Of a DNA stretch of 64,000 nt, positions 1 to 63,095 are shown in pieces. The translations under genes were made by a program, and so were the position numbers. Source of the DNA: Candidatus Magasanikiibacteriota bacterium. Lineage in GTDB: Bacteria > Patescibacteriota > Patescibacteriia > Magasanikbacterales > UBA922. Position 1 is the first letter of the stretch; the number at the start of each line of letters is the position of its first letter. The stretch spans positions 11,627 through 75,626 of the forward strand of contig CAILTG010000021.1 in NCBI GenBank assembly GCA_903837125.1, read 5' to 3'. The notes under the pieces are model-generated. The model saw only the letters and a list, made by a program, of their open reading frames with translations, ran no database searches and was not told the origin of the DNA.

Positions 1-320
1 AGCATGGCTACCTTTATACCATTACTATCTGCAGCAAAAGGCACTACACCTTTTGCGCGAGCCACTAATTCTGGCACTTTTTTCATTAAATCTTGGTCAA
101 TCTTTTCTCTACCTAAATTAACATAAACCTTGCCATAATACTCTGCTAAAGCTTGACCTAAAATATCCTTAGTGATGTATCCGCCCTCAATTAAGTATTC
201 AACAAGGCCCATCCCTGTGTCCTGCATGCCTTGTTCCACCTCTTTAATATCTTTTGCCGCCAAATAGGTCTCTCCAACCAAAATTTTCTTTATTTTGTCA
301 TCTGCTAACCTTTCTACCAT
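1..320 (-). CDS. Type IV pilus / type II secretion assembly ATPase (PilB/GspE family). Only the N-terminal T2SSE_N-like domain is present; the 3' end runs off the window.
   Basis: The reverse-strand translation MVERLADDKIKKILVGETYLAAKDIKEVEQGMQDTGMGLVEYLIEGGYITKDILGQALAEY... resembles the N-terminal domain of PilB/GspE ATPases. It begins at ATG (cat 318-320) and is not in the ORF track because it is truncated by the window edge. Confidence 0.5.
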   Translation of the reverse strand, partial: MVERLADDKIKKILVGETYLAAKDIKEVEQGMQDTGMGLVEYLIEGGYITKDILGQALAEYYGKVYVNLGREKIDQDLMKKVPELVARAKGVVPFAADSNGIKVAM

Positions 321-10163: not shown

Positions 10164-11432
10164 CTATACGCCTGAGTTAATAATTTTTATAAATTCCACT
10201 GCCAATTTCTCACACCCAAACTCCTCTATTCTCTTCTTTCCTCTCTCAACTAACACACCTCGCAACTTCTCATCTGACAATATTTTTTTAATTGCTTCGG
10301 CCAGTTCATCAACATTGTGTGGATTAATTAAATATCCAGCCTCACCAACCACTTCTGGTAATGATGAACGACTGGAAGTAATAACTGGTACACCACTGAC
10401 CATCGCCTCTAAAACTGGCAAACCAAAACCTTCATACAAACTTATAAAAACAAACAAACTACTCAACTTATACAAAGTTGGTTTATCTCTTTCGTCAACA
10501 TAACCAATATATCTAACACCTGATGTTTCTTTTATCAACTGCATTAATTTTTTATTCTTCCAACCTTTACCACCAGCAATTACAAGTTCATATTTCTGAG
10601 TTCTGAGTTCTGAGTTACAAAAAGCTTCTATTATTGTTTGAACATTTTTTCTAGGTTCAAGGGTTCCTAAATACAAAATGTACTTTTCTGGTAGACCATA
10701 CCTTTGTTTTACTTGATTTCTACTATCTGAGTTCTGAGTCATGATAAAAGGCAGCCCAGGCCTCAACACTTGCAATTTGCTTTCTGCTATCTGATATCTG
10801 TCTATCACATCGCGTTTAGTATTCTCCGATGGCGTAATTATTACATTCGCTCGCTGACATTGACGTTGCGGATTTAAAAACTTGTGCCACAATCTTTGTT
10901 TCCAAGTAAAACAATCCGGCAAAAATTCAAAAGACAAGTCATGAATGGTTTGAATGTGTCTAACATTTTTTGATAAATTTATAAAACTTAAATTTGGCGA
11001 AAACCAGGTATCAATTCCTCTGTCATTGCGAGGAAACCGATTCGCATCGGCTGACGAAGCAATCTCAGGCAACCTGTAATCTTTAGATAACGACGACGTG
11101 AGATTGCTTCGTCGTCGCGCGAGCTCCTCCTCGCAATGACATAATTTATCTAGTTTAATTATTCTAAGCCAAACTAACAAATTGAGTAATTTATTCGGCC
11201 ATCTAGTATACACATAATGCACATTTTCTTGCTTCCACTGCGGAATATTTTTTGAAACATCAGCCCAAGAATTATAAAACAAAAAATATTGGTTCGCATC
11301 AAGGCAATTATTCAGCTGTTTAAATCTGTCTAAATCAATGCCAAAAATAGTATTAAGCATTCCAAAAGTATACTCCCCAACGCCAGTACGATTTTTATCC
11401 ATTAAACAACGGATATCAACCCCAATATTCAT
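10164..11432 (-). CDS. Glycosyltransferase family 4 carrying in-frame repeat and palindromic-element insertions
   Basis: EGFGLPVLEAMVSGVPVITSSRSSLPEVVGEAGY motif. Contains (TCTGAGT)x3 at 10595-10615 and x2 at 10726-10739. Also contains the 121-bp GC-rich palindromic element at 11021-11141, translated in frame. Confidence 0.8.
   Translation of the reverse strand: MNIGVDIRCLMDKNRTGVGEYTFGMLNTIFGIDLDRFKQLNNCLDANQYFLFYNSWADVSKNIPQWKQENVHYVYTRWPNKLLNLLVWLRIIKLDKLCHCEEELARRRSNLTSSLSKDYRLPEIASSADANRFPRNDRGIDTWFSPNLSFINLSKNVRHIQTIHDLSFEFLPDCFTWKQRLWHKFLNPQRQCQRANVIITPSENTKRDVIDRYQIAESKLQVLRPGLPFIMTQNSDSRNQVKQRYGLPEKYILYLGTLEPRKNVQTIIEAFCNSELRTQKYELVIAGGKGWKNKKLMQLIKETSGVRYIGYVDERDKPTLYKLSSLFVFISLYEGFGLPVLEAMVSGVPVITSSRSSLPEVVGEAGYLINPHNVDELAEAIKKILSDEKLRGVLVERGKKRIEEFGCEKLAVEFIKIINSGV
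10595..10615. repeat. Heptanucleotide tandem repeat (TCTGAGT)x3 in frame in the GT4 CDS; a second copy (x2) lies at 10726-10739.
   Basis: tctgagttctgagttctgagt, read directly. Encodes NSELRTQ on the minus strand. Confidence 0.9.
11021..11141. repeat. GC-rich nested palindromic element (RPE-like) inserted in frame in the GT4 gene
   Basis: Outer 14-bp inverted repeat tgtcattgcgagga (11021-11034) / tcctcgcaatgaca (11128-11141). Inner 15-bp inverted repeat gacgaagcaatctca (11053-11067) / tgagattgcttcgtc (11098-11112). Locally GC-rich in an AT-rich gene. Translated as ...CHCEEELARRRSNLTSSLSKDYRLPEIASSADANRFPRNDRG... Confidence 0.8.
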
Positions 11433-11440
11433 ACATTATT

Positions 11441-12568
11441 TTATTTTATTTCTAACTCGCACTGATTCAATCCCTTTCTAAACTCCTCATAATGATCTTC
11501 CACAAATTTTTTGATTTTGTCTTTAAAATTGATTACGCTAAATTTTAGTGCATGTTCGCGAATTTTGACACTGTCCCAATTTTCATAATTAAAATTAAGT
11601 AAAGTATCTAATAGTGATTCCCAACTCTGATCTTTAAAATAAACCCCTGTCTCACCATGAATTACTGTTTCCGTTACTCCACCAACCGGATAAGCAATCA
11701 CCGGCCGGCCGGCCGCCATGGCCTCCACCGGAGTAATACCAAAATCCTCAACCTGAGGATGAATAAACGCTCTGGCATGACTCATCAACTCTGCCTTTTC
11801 CTGGTCCGTAACTCGTCCCAAAAATTCAATATTAGGTCTGGCACCTCTTTTTAAATCCTCCCACCAACCCGGTCCGGTGCCAAAAATTTTTAGCGGCCAA
11901 CCCAAACGATTAAAAACTTTTATTATCAAATCAAATCTCTTGTAAGCTGCAATTCTTCCACCAGCCAAAAAATAATCCCCCACTTCTGGTGAAATTTTAT
12001 ATTGTTCCACATCCACCGGCGGATAAATTACCTGCGCATCTCGCCGATAATATTTATGGATACGACTTTTTACCGTGTATGAATTGGCTAAAAAATGATC
12101 TACTCGATCCACGCTCATTTGATCCCACATACGCAAACGATGAATCAAAGACGGTATAAAAGATTTTATTAAACGATTATACTTTAATTCTTCTAAATAT
12201 TCATGGGTATCTGTCCAAAGATATCTGGTAGGCGTATGGCAATAAGAAATATGCAAAGTATTTGGTCTAGTTAACACTCCCTTAGCAAACGCTGAAGTTG
12301 AGGACAAAACCACGTCAAAATCATGAAGATTATATCTTTCAGTTGCCAGAGGTATCCAAGGCAAATACCACTGATAGTGATTTTTGTTAAATGGCAACTT
12401 AGAAATAAAAGATTGTCTGACATCCGCATCTGCAAAATCTTTTATTTTCTTAGTATCATAAAATAAAACAAAAATAGGCGCTTCCGGCCAAATTTCATGA
12501 AAAGCTTTTAACACTCTTTCCGCCCCCCCGTCTTGCGAAAGATAATCATGGACTAAAGCAATACGCAT
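11441..12568 (-). CDS. Glycosyltransferase family 4
   Basis: N terminus MRIALVHDYLSQDGGAERV and C-terminal GITPVEAMAAGRPVIAYPVGGVTETV motif. Confidence 0.8.
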   Translation of the reverse strand: MRIALVHDYLSQDGGAERVLKAFHEIWPEAPIFVLFYDTKKIKDFADADVRQSFISKLPFNKNHYQWYLPWIPLATERYNLHDFDVVLSSTSAFAKGVLTRPNTLHISYCHTPTRYLWTDTHEYLEELKYNRLIKSFIPSLIHRLRMWDQMSVDRVDHFLANSYTVKSRIHKYYRRDAQVIYPPVDVEQYKISPEVGDYFLAGGRIAAYKRFDLIIKVFNRLGWPLKIFGTGPGWWEDLKRGARPNIEFLGRVTDQEKAELMSHARAFIHPQVEDFGITPVEAMAAGRPVIAYPVGGVTETVIHGETGVYFKDQSWESLLDTLLNFNYENWDSVKIREHALKFSVINFKDKIKKFVEDHYEEFRKGLNQCELEIK

Positions 12569-14167: not shown

Positions 14168-14600
14168 TCTTATCTATTGTAGATGATCGCCTGCCGATGA
14201 GGCAGGAGGAAAGTCCGAACTCTATCCATTAATTTGGAAATGGTAGTGGGTAACACCCACCAGCACTTTAGAGATAAAGTGTTCGGGATAGCGCCACAGA
14301 GACAATACTACCCCGCAAAATGCGGGGGAAAGGTGAAAAGTGTATGGGGGTTTTGGTTCTAGATCAAAGCTACTATACTCCTCTAATAGTAATATTGGAG
14401 TGCGGCAAGCCCTACCTGGAGAAAGAGCAGCGCCCCGCAGTTTGCGGGGCGAAAAGTTAGCTCGTTAGAATCTATTGGCAACAATAGATCTAGATAAATG
14501 ATCGTCGCCCACAAATCACAACACCAATCGACACTAATTAGTGAAGATTAGTGAAAATAATAGTGGACACAAAATTCGGCTTATAACAATAGGTGAGACA
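14168..14600 (+). ncRNA. rnpB: RNase P RNA (bacterial type A), with a ~55-nt insertion containing ATTAGTG repeats near the 3' end
   Basis: P3 hairpin CCTGCC-GATGA-GGCAGG. CR-I GAGGAAAGTCCGAAC. P8/9 GGTAGTGGGTAACACCCACC. J11/12 CGCCACAGAGACAAT. P12 CCCCGCAAAATGCGGGGG. GGTGAAAAG. P18 ATCTATTG-GCAA-CAATAGAT followed by CTAGATAAATGA. CR-V ACAAAATTCGGCTTATAAC, whose TTCGGCTT pairs with AAGTCCGAA to form P4. P1/P2 5' tcttatctattgt pairs with 3' acaataggtgaga. Followed by an A/T hairpin terminator. Confidence 0.85.
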
Positions 14601-17726: not shown

Positions 17727-17809
17727 GTGGGCGAGAAGGGACTCGAACCCTTATGCCTTTCGGCGTTACCACCTCAAGGTAGTGCGTCTACCAATTTCGC
17801 CACTCGCCC
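17727..17809 (-). tRNA. tRNA-Leu (anticodon GAG) with a long variable arm
   Basis: Reverse complement GGGCGAGTGGCGAAATTGGTAGACGCACTACCTTGAGGTGGTAACGCCGAAAGGCATAAGGGTTCGAGTCCCTTCTCGCCCA. Acceptor and T arms pair. Anticodon loop TTGAGGT with G37. Leu-type D arm. Confidence 0.85.
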
Positions 17810-17832: not shown

Positions 17833-18594
17833 TTAGAACTTTCGTTCTTTCCCTACCACCATCTCAATCTTTTTCTTAGCTAAGTGAATTTTTATTTTAG
17901 TTTCTTTTGACTCTTTACCATCGGCCTCTACTACAAATGGAGTACGACTAAAAACAATCATTTCTTCAAAGGGAAAAATACTCGGATCTTCATATTTCTG
18001 TCGACCAAAAATACCTCTCTTTACCACTGGCCTTAAAAAAGCCTCTAATTTTCCATCTTGTGGATGTACCACTACATCTTCTTTATCTCCCTTCCAAATA
18101 TAAGGCTGCAGATTACAAATTACCAATTCCATTTTTTTACTTTGCGATGACACTTTAAATTTTTCATCATATTCTACGGCAATGTCACTTGGTGGTATAT
18201 GCAATTGAGAGACAAAATAACGATTATTAAACCAGCCCACGTCCAATTTAACTTTACGTCGGCGTGACAAAACATTACAAGCCTCTTCACCAATAGGTAT
18301 ACCCAGTACTTCCGCAATAGTATTATCTCCACCCACAGGCAAAAAACCAAAAGTTATCCCACAGGTAGCAGCACTAGAAAGTACCTGTCCAAAAGTAGCA
18401 TCATTACCCACAATCACAATAGTAGAAGCGCCTTTTTTTATTTCATCTTCTATTACTGCTTTAGAGTTGGTAAAATTTTGCAACCGAACTATCTTACCAG
18501 CAATGCTAAAATCCGTCAACCTAGTCTCAATAGCCCTGAGTGTTGAATCAAATTTCTTATTCTTTAAAAAATTGTCGTAAAGATAAACGTACAT
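17833..18594 (-). CDS. Lipid kinase / diacylglycerol kinase catalytic-domain protein (YegS/BmrU/DAGK_cat family)
   Basis: VIVGNDATFGQV...FGFLPVGGDNTIAEVLGIP matches DAGK_cat motifs. The ORF track begins at a TTG (18600); the ATG is at 18594. Confidence 0.55.
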   Translation of the reverse strand: MYVYLYDNFLKNKKFDSTLRAIETRLTDFSIAGKIVRLQNFTNSKAVIEDEIKKGASTIVIVGNDATFGQVLSSAATCGITFGFLPVGGDNTIAEVLGIPIGEEACNVLSRRRKVKLDVGWFNNRYFVSQLHIPPSDIAVEYDEKFKVSSQSKKMELVICNLQPYIWKGDKEDVVVHPQDGKLEAFLRPVVKRGIFGRQKYEDPSIFPFEEMIVFSRTPFVVEADGKESKETKIKIHLAKKKIEMVVGKERKF

Positions 18595-18602
18595 AAACAA
18601 AC

Positions 18603-18682
18603 AAAAAAGATCAGAAGATCAGAAGATCGAAAGATCATTAAAATGCTTGATCTTATGATCTTCTGATCTTTTGATCTTTACA
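18603..18682. repeat. Palindromic array of 8-mer repeats (AAGATCAG x4, then mirror-image TGATCTTN x4) carrying 8 GATC sites; probable large terminator hairpin after the bactofilin gene.
   Basis: aagatcagaagatcagaagatcgaaagatcattaaaatgcttgatcttatgatcttctgatcttttgatcttt. The loop contains the TTAAAATGCTT motif. On the minus strand the stem is followed by a T-rich tract. Confidence 0.8.
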
Positions 18683-18685
18683 ATA

Positions 18686-19153
18686 CTATTGGAGCACTGC
18701 AACATTCTCTTCTTCTCCTTTAACTTTTAACCTACCAAATCCACCTAATTTTTCTTTCTTTTCTGGTTCAATACCTTTCATCAACACCTTGCCATAAATT
18801 AATGCTCCTGGTTCTACTGCCAAAACCTTACAATCAATATCTCCAGCTACTCGAGCGGTAGAAGTTAGTTCCAACTTATCACTAATCTTAACATCACCGC
18901 GCACTTCTCCAGAAATAACCGCTTCTCCGGCTCTAACGTTAGCAAAAATTTTAGCCCCTTTTTCCACAGTCAATCTTTTACTGGTTTTCACGCTTCCTGA
19001 AACTGTCCCCTTCACCACTATATTACCCTCTGATGAAAAATCCCCCTCCACACTTACTGAAGGGCCAACCACTGTCTCCACCTCGTCTTGCGCCTGGTGT
19101 AACTTGTCTTCGTTGTTATTTAAAGAAATGCTGGGCGATGGTTTTTGAAACAT
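18686..19153 (-). CDS. Bactofilin (polymer-forming cytoskeletal protein, DUF583)
   Basis: Repetitive beta-helical G.V.G.V pattern: VSVEGDFSSEGNIVVKGTVSGSVKTSKRLTVEKGAKIFANVRAGEAVISGEVRGDVKISDKLELTSTARVAGDIDCKVLAV. Confidence 0.75.
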   Translation of the reverse strand: MFQKPSPSISLNNNEDKLHQAQDEVETVVGPSVSVEGDFSSEGNIVVKGTVSGSVKTSKRLTVEKGAKIFANVRAGEAVISGEVRGDVKISDKLELTSTARVAGDIDCKVLAVEPGALIYGKVLMKGIEPEKKEKLGGFGRLKVKGEEENVAVLQ

Positions 19154-63023: not shown

Positions 63024-63095
63024 CTGCCAGGGAAGGAATCGAACCCTCACTAACCTCGTTAACAGCGAGGCGTTTTACCATTAAACTACCTGGCA
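63024..63095 (-). tRNA. tRNA-Asn (anticodon GTT)
   Basis: Reverse complement TGCCAGGTAGTTTAATGGTAAAACGCCTCGCTGTTAACGAGGTTAGTGAGGGTTCGATTCCTTCCCTGGCAG. Acceptor TGCCAGG/CCTGGCA. Anticodon loop CTGTTAA. T loop TTCGATT. U1-A72 as in E. coli tRNA-Asn. Confidence 0.85.

What the first reader, a model, noticed from the sequence alone, without database searches (positions are those of the whole stretch)
11021..11141. 121-bp GC-rich nested palindromic element inserted in frame in a glycosyltransferase gene (RPE/Correia-like)
The element has perfect 14-bp outer and 15-bp inner inverted repeats. It is GC-rich against an AT-rich background and is translated without a stop as a ~40-aa hydrophilic peptide (…EELARRRSNLTSSLSKDYRLPEIASSADANRFPRNDRG…) within the GT4 N-terminal domain. 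This matches the behaviour of Rickettsia palindromic elements, which invade ORFs in frame, but it sits in an unrelated lineage. It may be a selfish mini-element or a recombination hot-spot.
Basis: partly seen in the sequence, partly recalled or inferred. Interest (0 to 1): 0.75.

Follow-up and report, generated by a model that had tools for sequence, protein, structure and literature searches.

The report
Hairpin-repeat pair inside a glycosyltransferase gene
The 121-bp palindrome is real: it is a pair of inverted copies of a dispersed hairpin repeat, of the kind recognised by small GIY-YIG single-strand DNA nucleases, sitting in frame in a glycosyltransferase gene of a Patescibacteria (CPR) bacterium, much as palindromic elements do in Rickettsia.

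Summary
Window 11021-11141 holds perfect 14-nt and 15-nt nested inverted repeats. It has 52% GC against roughly 29-39% in the flanks, and it reads in frame as residues 98-137 of a GT4 glycosyltransferase.

It is not one nested palindrome. It is two inverted ~47-nt hairpin units with their TGTC tags on the outside. Each unit is tag, 5-bp stem (ATTGC/GCAAT), variable inner hairpin, then an ATC tail.

This is the layout of the CGTC-tagged REP superfamily (Di Nocera 2013), which includes Rickettsia RPE-4/6 and Neisseria dRS3. It also resembles the repeats bound by Ssn GIY-YIG single-strand nucleases (Chenal 2025).

Copies exist elsewhere:
- One arm subtype occurs in 107 metagenome contigs and 53 genome stretches, mostly Candidatus Magasanikbacteria.
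- 30 of 91 pairs lie in frame inside housekeeping genes (LeuRS-like, UvrD, UvrC, ClpB-like, Sua5 and others).
- Ssn-like genes bracketed by the same units occur in related loci. One such terminal unit differs from a window arm by one base.

Orthologous GT4 genes carry related pairs, decayed remnants or nothing at this loop.

This is a new structural variant of a known kind, in a new lineage. How it moves is inferred, not shown.

The parts
11021..11141 (.). Whole element: a head-to-head (tags outside) pair of two inverted hairpin units. 121 bp, GC 52%.
   Evidence: The unit scan finds exactly two units here and none elsewhere in the window.
11021..11067 (+). Unit B, read 5'->3' on the + strand. 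TGTC tag 11021-11024. Basal stem ATTGC 11025-11029 pairs with GCAAT 11059-11063. Inner hairpin CCGAT/TCGC/ATCGG 11037-11050. Tail CTCA 11064-11067.
   Evidence: Sequence. Its 44-nt core has at most 1 mismatch in 17 other loci, including the terminal unit of the Ssn-like gene cassette L149/L196/L256. The subtype pattern gives 107 metagenome and 53 genome hits.
11068..11098 (.). Spacer between the two units. It is unique to this copy.
   Evidence: No credible match to the central 19 nt in any fetched locus: none exact, one at up to 3 mismatches (L353, an unrelated phage contig). Spacers differ between copies that share both arms.
11099..11141 (-). Unit A, read 5'->3' on the - (coding) strand: TGTCATTGCGAGGAGGAGCTCGCGCGACGACGAAGCAATCTCA. 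Same tag, basal stem and tail as unit B, but a different inner segment.
   Evidence: The first 40 nt are identical in L142 and L193 and have at most 1 mismatch in 9 loci.
10164..11432 (-). Host gene: GT4-family glycosyltransferase, 422 aa. The element encodes residues 98-137.
   Evidence: The gene order Bac_transf - GT4 - GT4 is conserved in orthologue loci. In the AlphaFold2 model, 10-residue block pLDDT means are 39-57 over residues 101-140, against 86 (91-100) and 94 (141-150) in the adjacent blocks.

Best explanation
The 121 bp are a non-autonomous pair of hairpin repeat units. Two units lie in inverted orientation with their TGTC tags outside. They belong to a dispersed family related to the CGTC-tagged REPs and Ssn-related motifs.

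Shown here:
- The family is multi-copy in related Candidatus Magasanikbacteria genomes.
- The units nearly always occur as tags-outside pairs.
- About a third of pairs sit in frame inside conserved genes.
- Full-length versions exist in which the same units bracket a ~95-aa GIY-YIG gene homologous to Neisseria SsnA.

Shown in the literature, for Neisseria and three homologues: Ssn binds such hairpins only as single-stranded DNA, only in one orientation, and cuts a few nucleotides upstream of the tag.

Inferred for this element:
- When the DNA is single-stranded (replication or transformation), each unit folds.
- An Ssn-type nuclease encoded elsewhere in the genome could nick just outside either end. 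That would delimit the pair as the unit that is copied or moved, in the way RAYT transposases do for REPINs.
- The copy in GT4 survived because it is frame-preserving and encodes a hydrophilic, probably disordered stretch in a loop that tolerates insertions.
- Its present effect is probably neutral for the enzyme. It may mark the gene for Ssn cleavage of incoming single strands.
For: Anatomy
- The base before GTCAT is C or T in 248 of 255 units. Tails are CTC 112, CCA 80, CCC 28.
- The basal stem covaries across subfamilies: TGC heads pair with GCAATC tails in 619/686, CCC with GGGATC in 35/66, TCC with GGAATC in 49/62, and off-diagonal counts are near zero.
- 151 distinct inner segments fold with mean MFE -7.0 kcal/mol against -3.2 for shuffles, p = 4e-16.
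- Pair orientation: HH 91, TT 6, HT 3.

Dispersal
-. The subtype occurs 11 times in one Magasanikbacteria MAG (JBDRSF01).
- Both window arms recur at 0-1 mismatch elsewhere.

Intragenic copies
- 30 of 91 pairs lie inside long ORFs.
- Pfam confirms hosts: class I aaRS, UvrD, AAA_2/ClpB, RVT_1, Wzy_C, RarA-like, MTase, UvrC, Sua5.

Nuclease link
- 11 of 20 GIY-YIG ORFs are bracketed by units, against 9 of 3135 other ORFs, p = 3.6e-21.
- In an independent sample, 21 of 38 close homologues have the YGTCAT...ATGACR bracket, against a background of 8.5% per side.
- The gene is flanked by REP-type hairpin repeats in A. lipoferum, N. gonorrhoeae, S. meliloti and N. aromaticivorans; only the first two show the canonical CGTCAT form.
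- The CPR protein is 48% identical to the Neisseria SsnA-homologue region, E 3e-29.

Tolerated loop
- Orthologue loops range from 6 to 75 aa. AlphaFold2 gives block pLDDT means of 39-57 over the insert.

Literature: PMC3733652, PMC11893778.
Against: - The window has no ssn-like gene and no second unit. The rest of the genome was not available.
- The published SRM search pattern does not match this family: 0 of 294 heads. Stem and loop dimensions differ from the CGTC definition.
- No Ssn-mediated transposition has been shown in any organism. GIY-YIG nucleases are not known to carry out strand transfer.
- Spacers differ between copies that share both arms. That does not fit simple copying of the whole pair.
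- The same loop, and the same sites in UvrC and Sua5, are occupied in diverged lineages. That could mean long vertical persistence rather than recent mobility.
Confidence: 0.72

Rival explanations
1. Ordinary lineage-specific protein loop whose palindromic DNA is coincidental or driven by the peptide.
For: The loop length at this site is very variable among orthologues.
Against: Both arms recur nearly identically in unrelated genes and in intergenic DNA. The fold z-score is -6.8. The GC content jumps at the element. Orthologues with 7-12-aa loops exist.
Confidence: 0.02
2. A single ancient insertion in the GT4 gene of an ancestor, inherited vertically. The arms are kept alike by selection or by hairpin-templated correction and gene conversion, not by ongoing mobility. 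The window copy would then be a well-kept fossil.
For: - Related pairs sit at the same loop and in the same phase (xGT CAT) in at least five clades of orthologues at 47-64% identity.
- AT-decayed versions keep their complementarity: L122 has TCATTTTGAGC/GCTCAAAATGA.
- UvrC and Sua5 show the same orthologous-site sharing.
Against: - The entry point differs by 1-2 codons between clades: 2, 3 or 4 residues after 'LD'.
- The window and L123 pairs each match different dispersed arm subtypes that are also found elsewhere.
- The closest orthologue, P0002, lacks the insert.
- P0079 reads its right arm in another frame.
Confidence: 0.25
3. The pairs are not moved by Ssn. Either the ssn gene is a homing-type parasite that lodges inside pre-existing pairs, or Ssn and its repeats are a domesticated host system that restricts recombination of incoming single-stranded DNA. 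Under the second reading, the GT4 copy is kept as a cleavage tag.
For: - In Neisseria, NTS/SsnA lowers integration of NTS-flanked transforming DNA (PMC11893778).
- In A. lipoferum and S. meliloti the gene lies between complete pairs rather than within one.
- Arms are conserved while spacers are free to vary.
Against: This does not explain how pairs reach new sites inside genes. Many cassettes have single units as direct termini.
Confidence: 0.3
4. The hairpin is selected at the RNA level within the operon mRNA, as a stabiliser, an RNase III site or a translational pause.
For: The predicted mRNA structure is strong, -62.7 kcal/mol. Di Nocera et al. argue that many REPs act as RNA.
Against: - The unit pairs occur in both orientations relative to host ORFs.
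- Rfam gives only noise matches.
- SsnA does not bind RNA (PMC11893778).
- The hairpin lies in the middle of a coding sequence.
Confidence: 0.08
5. A REPIN moved by a RAYT (IS200/IS605-like tyrosine transposase), or a classic MITE such as a Correia element.
For: The overall shape, two inverted hairpin repeats of about 120 bp, resembles a REPIN.
Against: - The tag is YGTC, not GTAG.
- There is no target-site duplication.
- The gene bracketed by the units is a GIY-YIG nuclease gene, not a transposase gene.
- RAYT genes were not searched for.
Confidence: 0.03

Closest known systems
CGTC-tagged REP superfamily (Di Nocera, De Gregorio & Rocco 2013, PMC3733652). It includes Rickettsia conorii RPE-4/RPE-6 and Neisseria dRS3.
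   Same: - Unpaired CGTC/TGTC tag.
- Stem starting A-T, T-A.
- Short unpaired tail (CCA/CTC).
- Mostly tags-outside (HH) pairs with 20-100-nt spacers, often of unlike units.
- Intragenic in-frame copies occur, with several DNA-repair and tRNA-related genes (UvrC, UvrD, TruB-like) among the hosts.
   Different: - The stem is bipartite: 5 bp, then a GA-rich internal loop, then a variable inner hairpin. CGTC REPs have 8-9 bp with a 4-5-nt loop.
- Units are 23-64 nt.
- The host lineage is Patescibacteria, not among the taxa named in the sections of the paper that were read.
- The intragenic share is high, about 33%.
Ssn-related motifs (NTS/SRM) and Ssn GIY-YIG single-strand nucleases (Chenal et al. 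2025, PMC11893778).
   Same: - HGTCWY head, hairpin, and a C straight after the palindrome.
- ssn-like ~95-aa GIY-YIG genes bracketed by the repeats.
- The protein is 48% identical to the Neisseria homologue.
   Different: - The published SRM search pattern misses this family entirely.
- The paper's main text contains neither 'Patescibacteria', 'Candidate Phyla' nor 'in-frame'.
[quoted passage not shown]
- No biochemistry exists for the CPR pairs.
Rickettsia palindromic elements (RPE).
   Same: Palindromic elements of about 100-150 bp, inserted in frame in housekeeping genes and read as hydrophilic peptides in tolerated regions.
   Different: A different phylum. Sequence similarity to the RPE consensus sequences was not tested here. 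RPE-1 is a longer single palindrome.
REPIN/RAYT systems.
   Same: Two inverted hairpin repeats form the presumed replicating unit. A single small nuclease gene is flanked by the same repeats.
   Different: REPINs have a GTAG tag and a HUH tyrosine transposase. Here the tag is YGTC and the gene encodes a GIY-YIG nuclease with no known strand-transfer chemistry.

Membership tests
CGTC-tagged REP superfamily | Unpaired terminal CGTC tag (TGTC or CCTC allowed) | tested here: met
   TGTC at both outer ends of the window element. C or T precedes GTCAT in 248 of 255 family units.
CGTC-tagged REP superfamily | Stem begins with complementary A-T, T-A | tested here: met
   ATTGC...GCAAT in the window. 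The diagonal covariation table supports the pairing across subfamilies.
CGTC-tagged REP superfamily | Stem 8-9 bp and loop 4-5 nt | tested here: not met
   The units have a 5-bp basal stem, an internal loop and a variable inner hairpin, and are 23-64 nt long.
CGTC-tagged REP superfamily | 3-nt unpaired tail, consensus CCA | tested here: inconclusive
   The window has CTC(A). Family-wide the tails are CTC 112, CCA 80, CCC 28.
CGTC-tagged REP superfamily | Predominantly HH dimers (tags outside) | tested here: met
   HH 91, TT 6, HT 3. The window element is HH.
CGTC-tagged REP superfamily | Dispersed multi-copy family within genomes | tested here: inconclusive
   Met in related MAGs, where one subtype has 11, 6 and 4 copies. 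Only one pair was found in the 64-kb window, and the rest of the genome was not available.
Ssn/SRM system | Repeat matches the published SRM search pattern HGTCWYN(0-2)YYVSBRHN(0-5)WNVSBRGN(0-2)RNCYNB | tested here: not met
   0 matches in the window and 0 of 294 TGC-type heads. Canonical controls L360, L361, L302 and L321 do match.
Ssn/SRM system | Head GTC upstream of the palindrome and C immediately after it (the bases needed for cleavage and binding in Neisseria) | tested here: met
   TGTC-ATTGC...GCAAT-C in both units.
Ssn/SRM system | A small single-domain GIY-YIG (cd10448-type) gene flanked by the repeats | tested here: met
   Met in related loci: 11 of 20 bracketed, p = 3.6e-21. PF01541 with E 1e-15 to 7e-18. 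48% identity to the Neisseria homologue. Unit B has at most 1 mismatch to the L149 cassette terminus. No such gene is present in the window itself.
Ssn/SRM system | Strand-specific cleavage of single-stranded DNA upstream of the repeat | not testable with these tools
   This needs purified protein and oligonucleotides.
Rickettsia palindromic elements | In-frame insertion in conserved ORFs at tolerated or surface positions | tested here: met
   AlphaFold2 10-residue block pLDDT means are 39-57 over the insert.
Rickettsia palindromic elements | Sequence similarity to the RPE-1..8 consensus sequences; Rickettsia host | not tested
   No RPE sequences were compared. The host is a Patescibacteria bacterium.
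REPIN/RAYT | GTAG tag | tested here: not met
   The tag is YGTC.
REPIN/RAYT | Units flank a RAYT (IS200/IS605-like tyrosine transposase) gene | not tested
   The loci were not screened for RAYT genes. The only gene family examined next to the units is GIY-YIG.
Correia/MITE | Target-site duplication flanking plain terminal inverted repeats | tested here: not met
   Direct repeats at the flanks of 74 distinct pairs are no more frequent than in the shuffled control.

The most novel reading that the evidence does not exclude
In Patescibacteria, Ssn-type nucleases and their hairpin repeats behave as a true insertion-sequence-like system that writes new peptide segments into housekeeping proteins. 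The intragenic pairs are then retained for very long periods, with the same sites occupied in diverged lineages and the arms conserved while spacers drift. They are retained because they serve as single-strand cleavage tags that control which alleles can be replaced by natural transformation. This would tie the old puzzle of Rickettsia's in-frame palindromes to a defined enzyme and a selective reason.
Probability: 0.15. Interest if true: 0.8.

Novelty: new variant of a known kind. Interest (0 to 1): 0.55.

Why it matters
In-frame palindromic insertions in proteins have mainly been a Rickettsia curiosity with no known enzyme behind them. This element shows three things:
- The same behaviour is common in a CPR lineage.
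- The repeats belong, by their tag, tail and pairing, to the CGTC-REP/Ssn-motif world.
- Ssn-like nuclease genes carry the very same units at their ends.

That gives a testable candidate enzyme for how such inserts arise.

It also flags a repeat family that the published Ssn-motif search pattern cannot detect, so surveys of Ssn/repeat pairs are probably incomplete for CPR.

For annotation, these units explain many recurring '...IASSADANRLPRND...' segments and small spurious ORFs in metagenome-assembled genomes.

Tried and rejected
- **Rfam.** The gathering search of the window found only RNase P RNA and two tRNAs. The E-value search of 10900-11260 gave only generic hairpin noise (mir-653, E 0.12). 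No RNA family fits.
- **Literature search for the sequence string GTCATTGCGAG.** Only unrelated primers came up.
- **The look-up of encoding contigs for the window protein.** It is not on record. The cluster look-up gave no name or accession, so the rest of the genome could not be reached.
- **GIY-YIG genes in the first 120 IMG/VR loci, which were selected by the repeat.** None were found. My first regex test on the independent GIY-YIG sample found only 1 of 66 bracketed, because it required 'GAG' after the stem triplet. A general inverted-repeat test and a YGTCAT/ATGACR test then showed the bracket.
- **The GIY-YIG/REP link as a new discovery.** I briefly treated it as new. Literature searches found nothing, but one search found Chenal et al. 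2025, which already describes it. The novelty claim was withdrawn.
- **Target-site duplication or a target motif.** None was found beyond a C/G next to the tag and AT-rich flanks.
- **Element length modulo 3.** Among intragenic pairs there is only a weak excess of one class (17 of 30), so this is not decisive.
- **The GC-rich patch at 11620-11800 in the neighbouring GT4 gene.** It was considered as a second insert and rejected from the translation alone: no unit head lies there and it appears to fall in the conserved C-terminal part of the enzyme. This was not checked against an alignment.
Full report

Yes. Window 11021-11141 contains two perfect inverted repeats. The outer arms are 14 nt (11021-11034 / 11128-11141) and the inner arms are 15 nt (11053-11067 / 11099-11113). 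Each arm motif occurs only at these two places in 64 kb, where about 0.1 chance matches are expected.

GC content is 0.525 over the element, against 0.29-0.39 in the neighbouring windows. The stretch folds far better than shuffled sequence: as RNA -62.7 kcal/mol (z = -6.8), and as DNA -36.5 kcal/mol (z = -6.5).

It lies in ORF 10164..11432 on the minus strand (422 aa). Pfam finds Glycos_transf_1 (E 1.9e-38) and the second half of Glyco_transf_4, so this is a GT4 glycosyltransferase. It sits in a Bac_transf - GT4 - GT4 operon. The element starts at the first base of codon 98 and encodes residues 98-137 (CHCEEELARRRSNLTSSLSKDYRLPEIASSADANRFPRND) without a stop.

The closest homologues are from Candidatus Magasanikbacteria, in the Patescibacteria (CPR), at no more than 67% identity.

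**2. Anatomy: two inverted hairpin units, not one nested palindrome**

Reading these matches showed the basic unit:
- a C/T-GTC tag;
- a 5-bp stem, ATTGC...GCAAT;
- a GA-rich internal loop;
- a variable inner hairpin, such as GCGAAGC, GCCGAAGGC or GGCAAAGCC;
- a tail, ATC plus 2-3 nt.

Supporting counts:
- C or T precedes GTCAT in 248 of 255 units. Tails are CTC 112, CCA 80, CCC 28.
- The basal stem covaries across subfamilies. TGC heads pair with GCAATC tails in 619/686, CCC with GGGATC in 35/66, TCC with GGAATC in 49/62, and CTT with AAGATC in 9/21. Off-diagonal counts are near zero.
- 151 distinct inner segments fold with mean MFE -7.0 kcal/mol, against -3.2 for shuffles (p = 4e-16).

The window element is two such units in inverted orientation with both TGTC tags outside, separated by a 31-nt spacer. 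The units are unlike each other. Unit B (+ strand, 11021-11067) carries the inner hairpin CCGAT-TCGC-ATCGG. Unit A (- strand, 11099-11141) carries GAGGAGCTCGCGCGAC.

**3. Other copies**

The window has no second unit. Copies are abundant elsewhere.

The right-arm subtype CCGATNNGAATCGG-N(1-10)-CTCGCNATGAC occurs in 107 metagenome contigs with 115 matches, some contigs holding three. It also occurs in 53 stretches of GTDB species-representative genomes, and that scan ran to completion. Most genome hits are Candidatus Magasanikbacteria MAGs. One MAG (JBDRSF01) has 11 copies on 8 contigs, nzgw349 has 6, and GW2011_GWC2_37_14 has 4.

Other hits are MAGs titled 'uncultured Gammaproteobacteria', with GC 33-51% (mostly 33-46%). 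Their proteins resemble Magasanikbacteria proteins; for example the Sua5 proteins are 59% identical. That label looks doubtful.

Unit A (40 nt) is identical in L142 and L193 and has at most 1 mismatch in 9 loci. Unit B (44 nt) has at most 1 mismatch in 17 loci. The spacer has no credible match in any fetched locus.

In 1.27 Mb of fetched loci, tags-outside (HH) pairs number 91, against 6 tags-inside and 3 tandem. No target-site duplication was found. The only flank signal is a C/G next to the tag.

**4. In-frame invasion of genes is general**

Thirty of the 91 pairs lie inside stop-free frames of at least 150 aa, more than 20 aa from either end. Pfam confirmed these hosts:
- class I aminoacyl-tRNA synthetase (LeuRS-like, 1023 aa);
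- UvrD helicase;
- ClpB/C-type AAA_2 ATPase;
- a reverse transcriptase;
- O-antigen ligase (Wzy_C);
- RarA-like ATPase;
- a PUA-domain methyltransferase;
- UvrC, with two pairs in one ORF;
- Sua5/YrdC.

A TruB-like fragment was too short to score. The right arm is nearly always read as ...IA(S/T)SADANR(L/P)PRND..., which is the hydrophilic one of its two open frames.

In N. meningitidis only 2% of the related NTS repeats are intragenic (PMC11893778). The CPR family behaves more like Rickettsia RPEs.

**5. The GT4 loop**

Among 120 homologues the loop after 'IKLDK' ranges from 6 to 75 aa.

Insert-free orthologues exist, including the closest one (P0002, with the 12-aa loop KILKNIKYLDTF). Its DNA was fetched as L124.

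At least five clades carry GTCAT-type pairs at this loop, always entering as xGT CAT:
- The window and L123/P0031 have GTCATTGCGAGG-type arms.
- L121, L125, L126 and L127 have GTCATCTTGAGCG... arms.
- L122 is an AT-decayed version (GC 27%) that still keeps TCATTTTGAGC/GCTCAAAATGA.
- P0079 reads its right arm in another frame.

The entry point is 2, 3 or 4 residues after 'LD', depending on the clade. The window and L123 pairs each match different dispersed arm subtypes. I read this as several gains, or replacements, in one tolerant loop. A single ancient gain followed by turnover is not excluded.

The same kind of orthologous-site sharing is seen in UvrC (L227 vs L250) and Sua5 (L240 vs L262).

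Other orthologues carry peptides at this loop that, from my own recollection rather than any test here, look typical of unrelated mini-repeats: NCLKIKNxKLKI, QCNNVTIQQ, LPTGRQ and PPLRGAGG. The loop therefore appears to accumulate insertions.

AlphaFold2, run on alignment A1, gave mean pLDDT 85 and pTM 0.83. The 10-residue block means are 39-57 over residues 101-140, against 86 and 94 in the adjacent blocks. This is consistent with an exposed, poorly ordered excursion between a helix and strand 142-145 of the N-terminal domain.

**6. The associated gene**

In orthologue locus L126, a pair abuts the stop codon of an 85-aa GIY-YIG gene.

Across loci L121-L288, 20 such small GIY-YIG ORFs were found (PF01541, E 1e-15 to 7e-18). 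Eleven of them are bracketed by tags-outside unit heads, against 9 of 3135 other ORFs of similar size (Fisher p = 3.6e-21). Most of those 9 are spurious frames lying over pairs.

The typical cassette reads: unit, then 15-40 nt, then the gene from ATG to stop, then 5-25 nt, then the inverted unit. This holds across unit subfamilies: TGC, CCC and TCC types. The left terminal unit of the L149 cassette differs from window unit B by one base.

In an independent sample chosen by the protein alone (71 IMG/VR loci), 21 of 38 close homologues have YGTCAT upstream and ATGACR downstream. The background is 8.5% per 185-nt window. The repeats there are canonical, for example CGTCATTCCCGCGAAAGCGGGAATCCAG. 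Distant phage homologues show none.

In reference genomes the gene is flanked by REP-type hairpin repeats in Azospirillum lipoferum 4B (where it sits between sufB and sufC), Neisseria gonorrhoeae, Sinorhizobium meliloti and Novosphingobium aromaticivorans. Only the first two show the canonical CGTCAT form. S. meliloti has a CCTC-tagged type, and N. aromaticivorans has CGTC-tagged units whose stem does not start with AT.

**7. What is already known**

Di Nocera et al. 2013 (PMC3733652) defined CGTC-tagged REPs by:
- an unpaired CGTC/TGTC/CCTC tag;
- an 8-9-bp stem starting A-T, T-A;
- a 4-5-nt loop;
- a 3-nt tail, about CCA;
- mainly HH dimers;
- intragenic copies;
- no dedicated transposase.

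They assigned R. conorii RPE-4/RPE-6 and Neisseria dRS3 to this superfamily.

Chenal et al. 2025 (PMC11893778) showed that a small GIY-YIG protein, SsnA (cd10448), binds the dRS3-containing repeat NTS. It binds only as single-stranded DNA and only in one orientation, and it cuts a few nucleotides upstream. The GTC before the palindrome is needed for cutting, and the C after the palindrome is needed for binding. They also showed that ssn genes are widely flanked by such 'Ssn-related motifs', likened the NTS-ssnA-NTS layout to an insertion sequence, and showed that the system lowers integration of NTS-flanked transforming DNA.

So the nuclease-repeat link that I re-derived is not new.

The CPR protein is 48% identical (E 3e-29) to the Neisseria homologue region. 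The published SRM search pattern matches canonical controls, but it matches none of 294 CPR-type heads and nothing in the window. The paper's main text contains neither 'Patescibacteria', 'Candidate Phyla' nor 'in-frame'.

**8. Most likely mechanism**

Shown:
- a dispersed, structured, oriented hairpin unit, paired with tags outside;
- near-identical arms in many genomes;
- frequent in-frame residence in conserved genes;
- Ssn-like genes carrying the same units as termini.

Known from the literature: Ssn cuts single-stranded DNA just 5' of the tag.

Inferred:
- In a tags-outside pair, the forward unit on each strand places a cut just outside each end. The pair, or the pair plus an ssn gene, is therefore a delimited segment that can be copied or moved while the DNA is single-stranded, with host repair completing the event.
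- Short pairs may be gene-less relatives of the cassettes.
- The GT4 copy persists because it preserves the frame and lies in a tolerant loop.

Points that do not fit:
- Spacers differ among copies with identical arms.
- GIY-YIG enzymes are not known to join DNA.
- Orthologous sites are occupied across deep divergence.

These three points suggest either long retention with selection or conversion acting on the arms, or a host-level role as a cleavage tag, rather than frequent transposition.

**9. Verdict**

The element is a new structural variant, in a new lineage, of a known kind of repeat (CGTC-REP / Ssn-related motif). Its mode of spread is inferred. Interest is moderate.

Noticed in passing
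window 18605-18679: A 75-bp GATC-rich palindrome: eight GATC motifs, 32-nt arms, 91% complementary. It fills the gap between two minus-strand ORFs (17833..18600 and 18686..19153).
   Followed up: no
window 14171-14599 (+): Bacterial RNase P RNA class A (173 bits), next to the start of the sugar-transferase/GT4 gene cluster on the opposite strand. tRNAs lie at 17728-17809 and 63024-63095.
   Followed up: no
GT4 orthologues P0004, P0040, P0009, P0021, P0120 and others (loop after 'IKLDK'): The same loop carries recurring peptides such as NCLKIKNxKLKI, QCNNVTIQQ, LPTGRQ, PLVGEGRVG and PPLRGAGG..PPQGG. From my own recollection, not any test here, these look like products of other small repeat families. 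The loop appears to collect insertions of several kinds.
   Followed up: partly
L127 3128-4510 and L128 10001-11326: The GT4 pair carries further nested palindromes, for example CCCCCCTTGAGGGGGG...CCCCCCTCAAGGGGGG in L128. These lengthen the loop to 71-75 aa.
   Followed up: no
L227 vs L250 (UvrC); L240 vs L262 (Sua5/YrdC): Diverged orthologues (Sua5 59% identical without the insert) carry pairs at the same protein position, with different left arms. This is the same pattern as in GT4.
   Followed up: partly
L239, L243, L250, L251, L253-L257, L262-L265, L269, L271, L274, L276, L282, L284, L286: MAGs titled 'uncultured Gammaproteobacteria bacterium ... binchicken' have GC 33-51% (mostly 33-46%), CPR-type units, and proteins close to Magasanikbacteria proteins. 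The taxonomic label looks unreliable.
   Followed up: partly
L360 (Azospirillum lipoferum 4B plasmid AZO_p3, 255106-256196): An ssn-like GIY-YIG gene sits between sufB and sufC, with a complete CGTC-REP pair on each side.
   Followed up: no
L001 7062-7093, L003, L010 (IMG/VR contigs): Solo units lie directly upstream of a ribosome-binding site and ATG (…GCAATCTCAAAAGGAGGAAACCATG). L005 has four same-strand solo units, each preceded by TCTTTAGYCCCT.
   Followed up: no
L361 (N. gonorrhoeae) 401-670: The SsnA-homologue reading frame appears N-terminally truncated in this record: the longest ORF is 71 aa from a TTG start. No gene is listed there in the PLSDB table, which is incomplete by design.
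   Followed up: no
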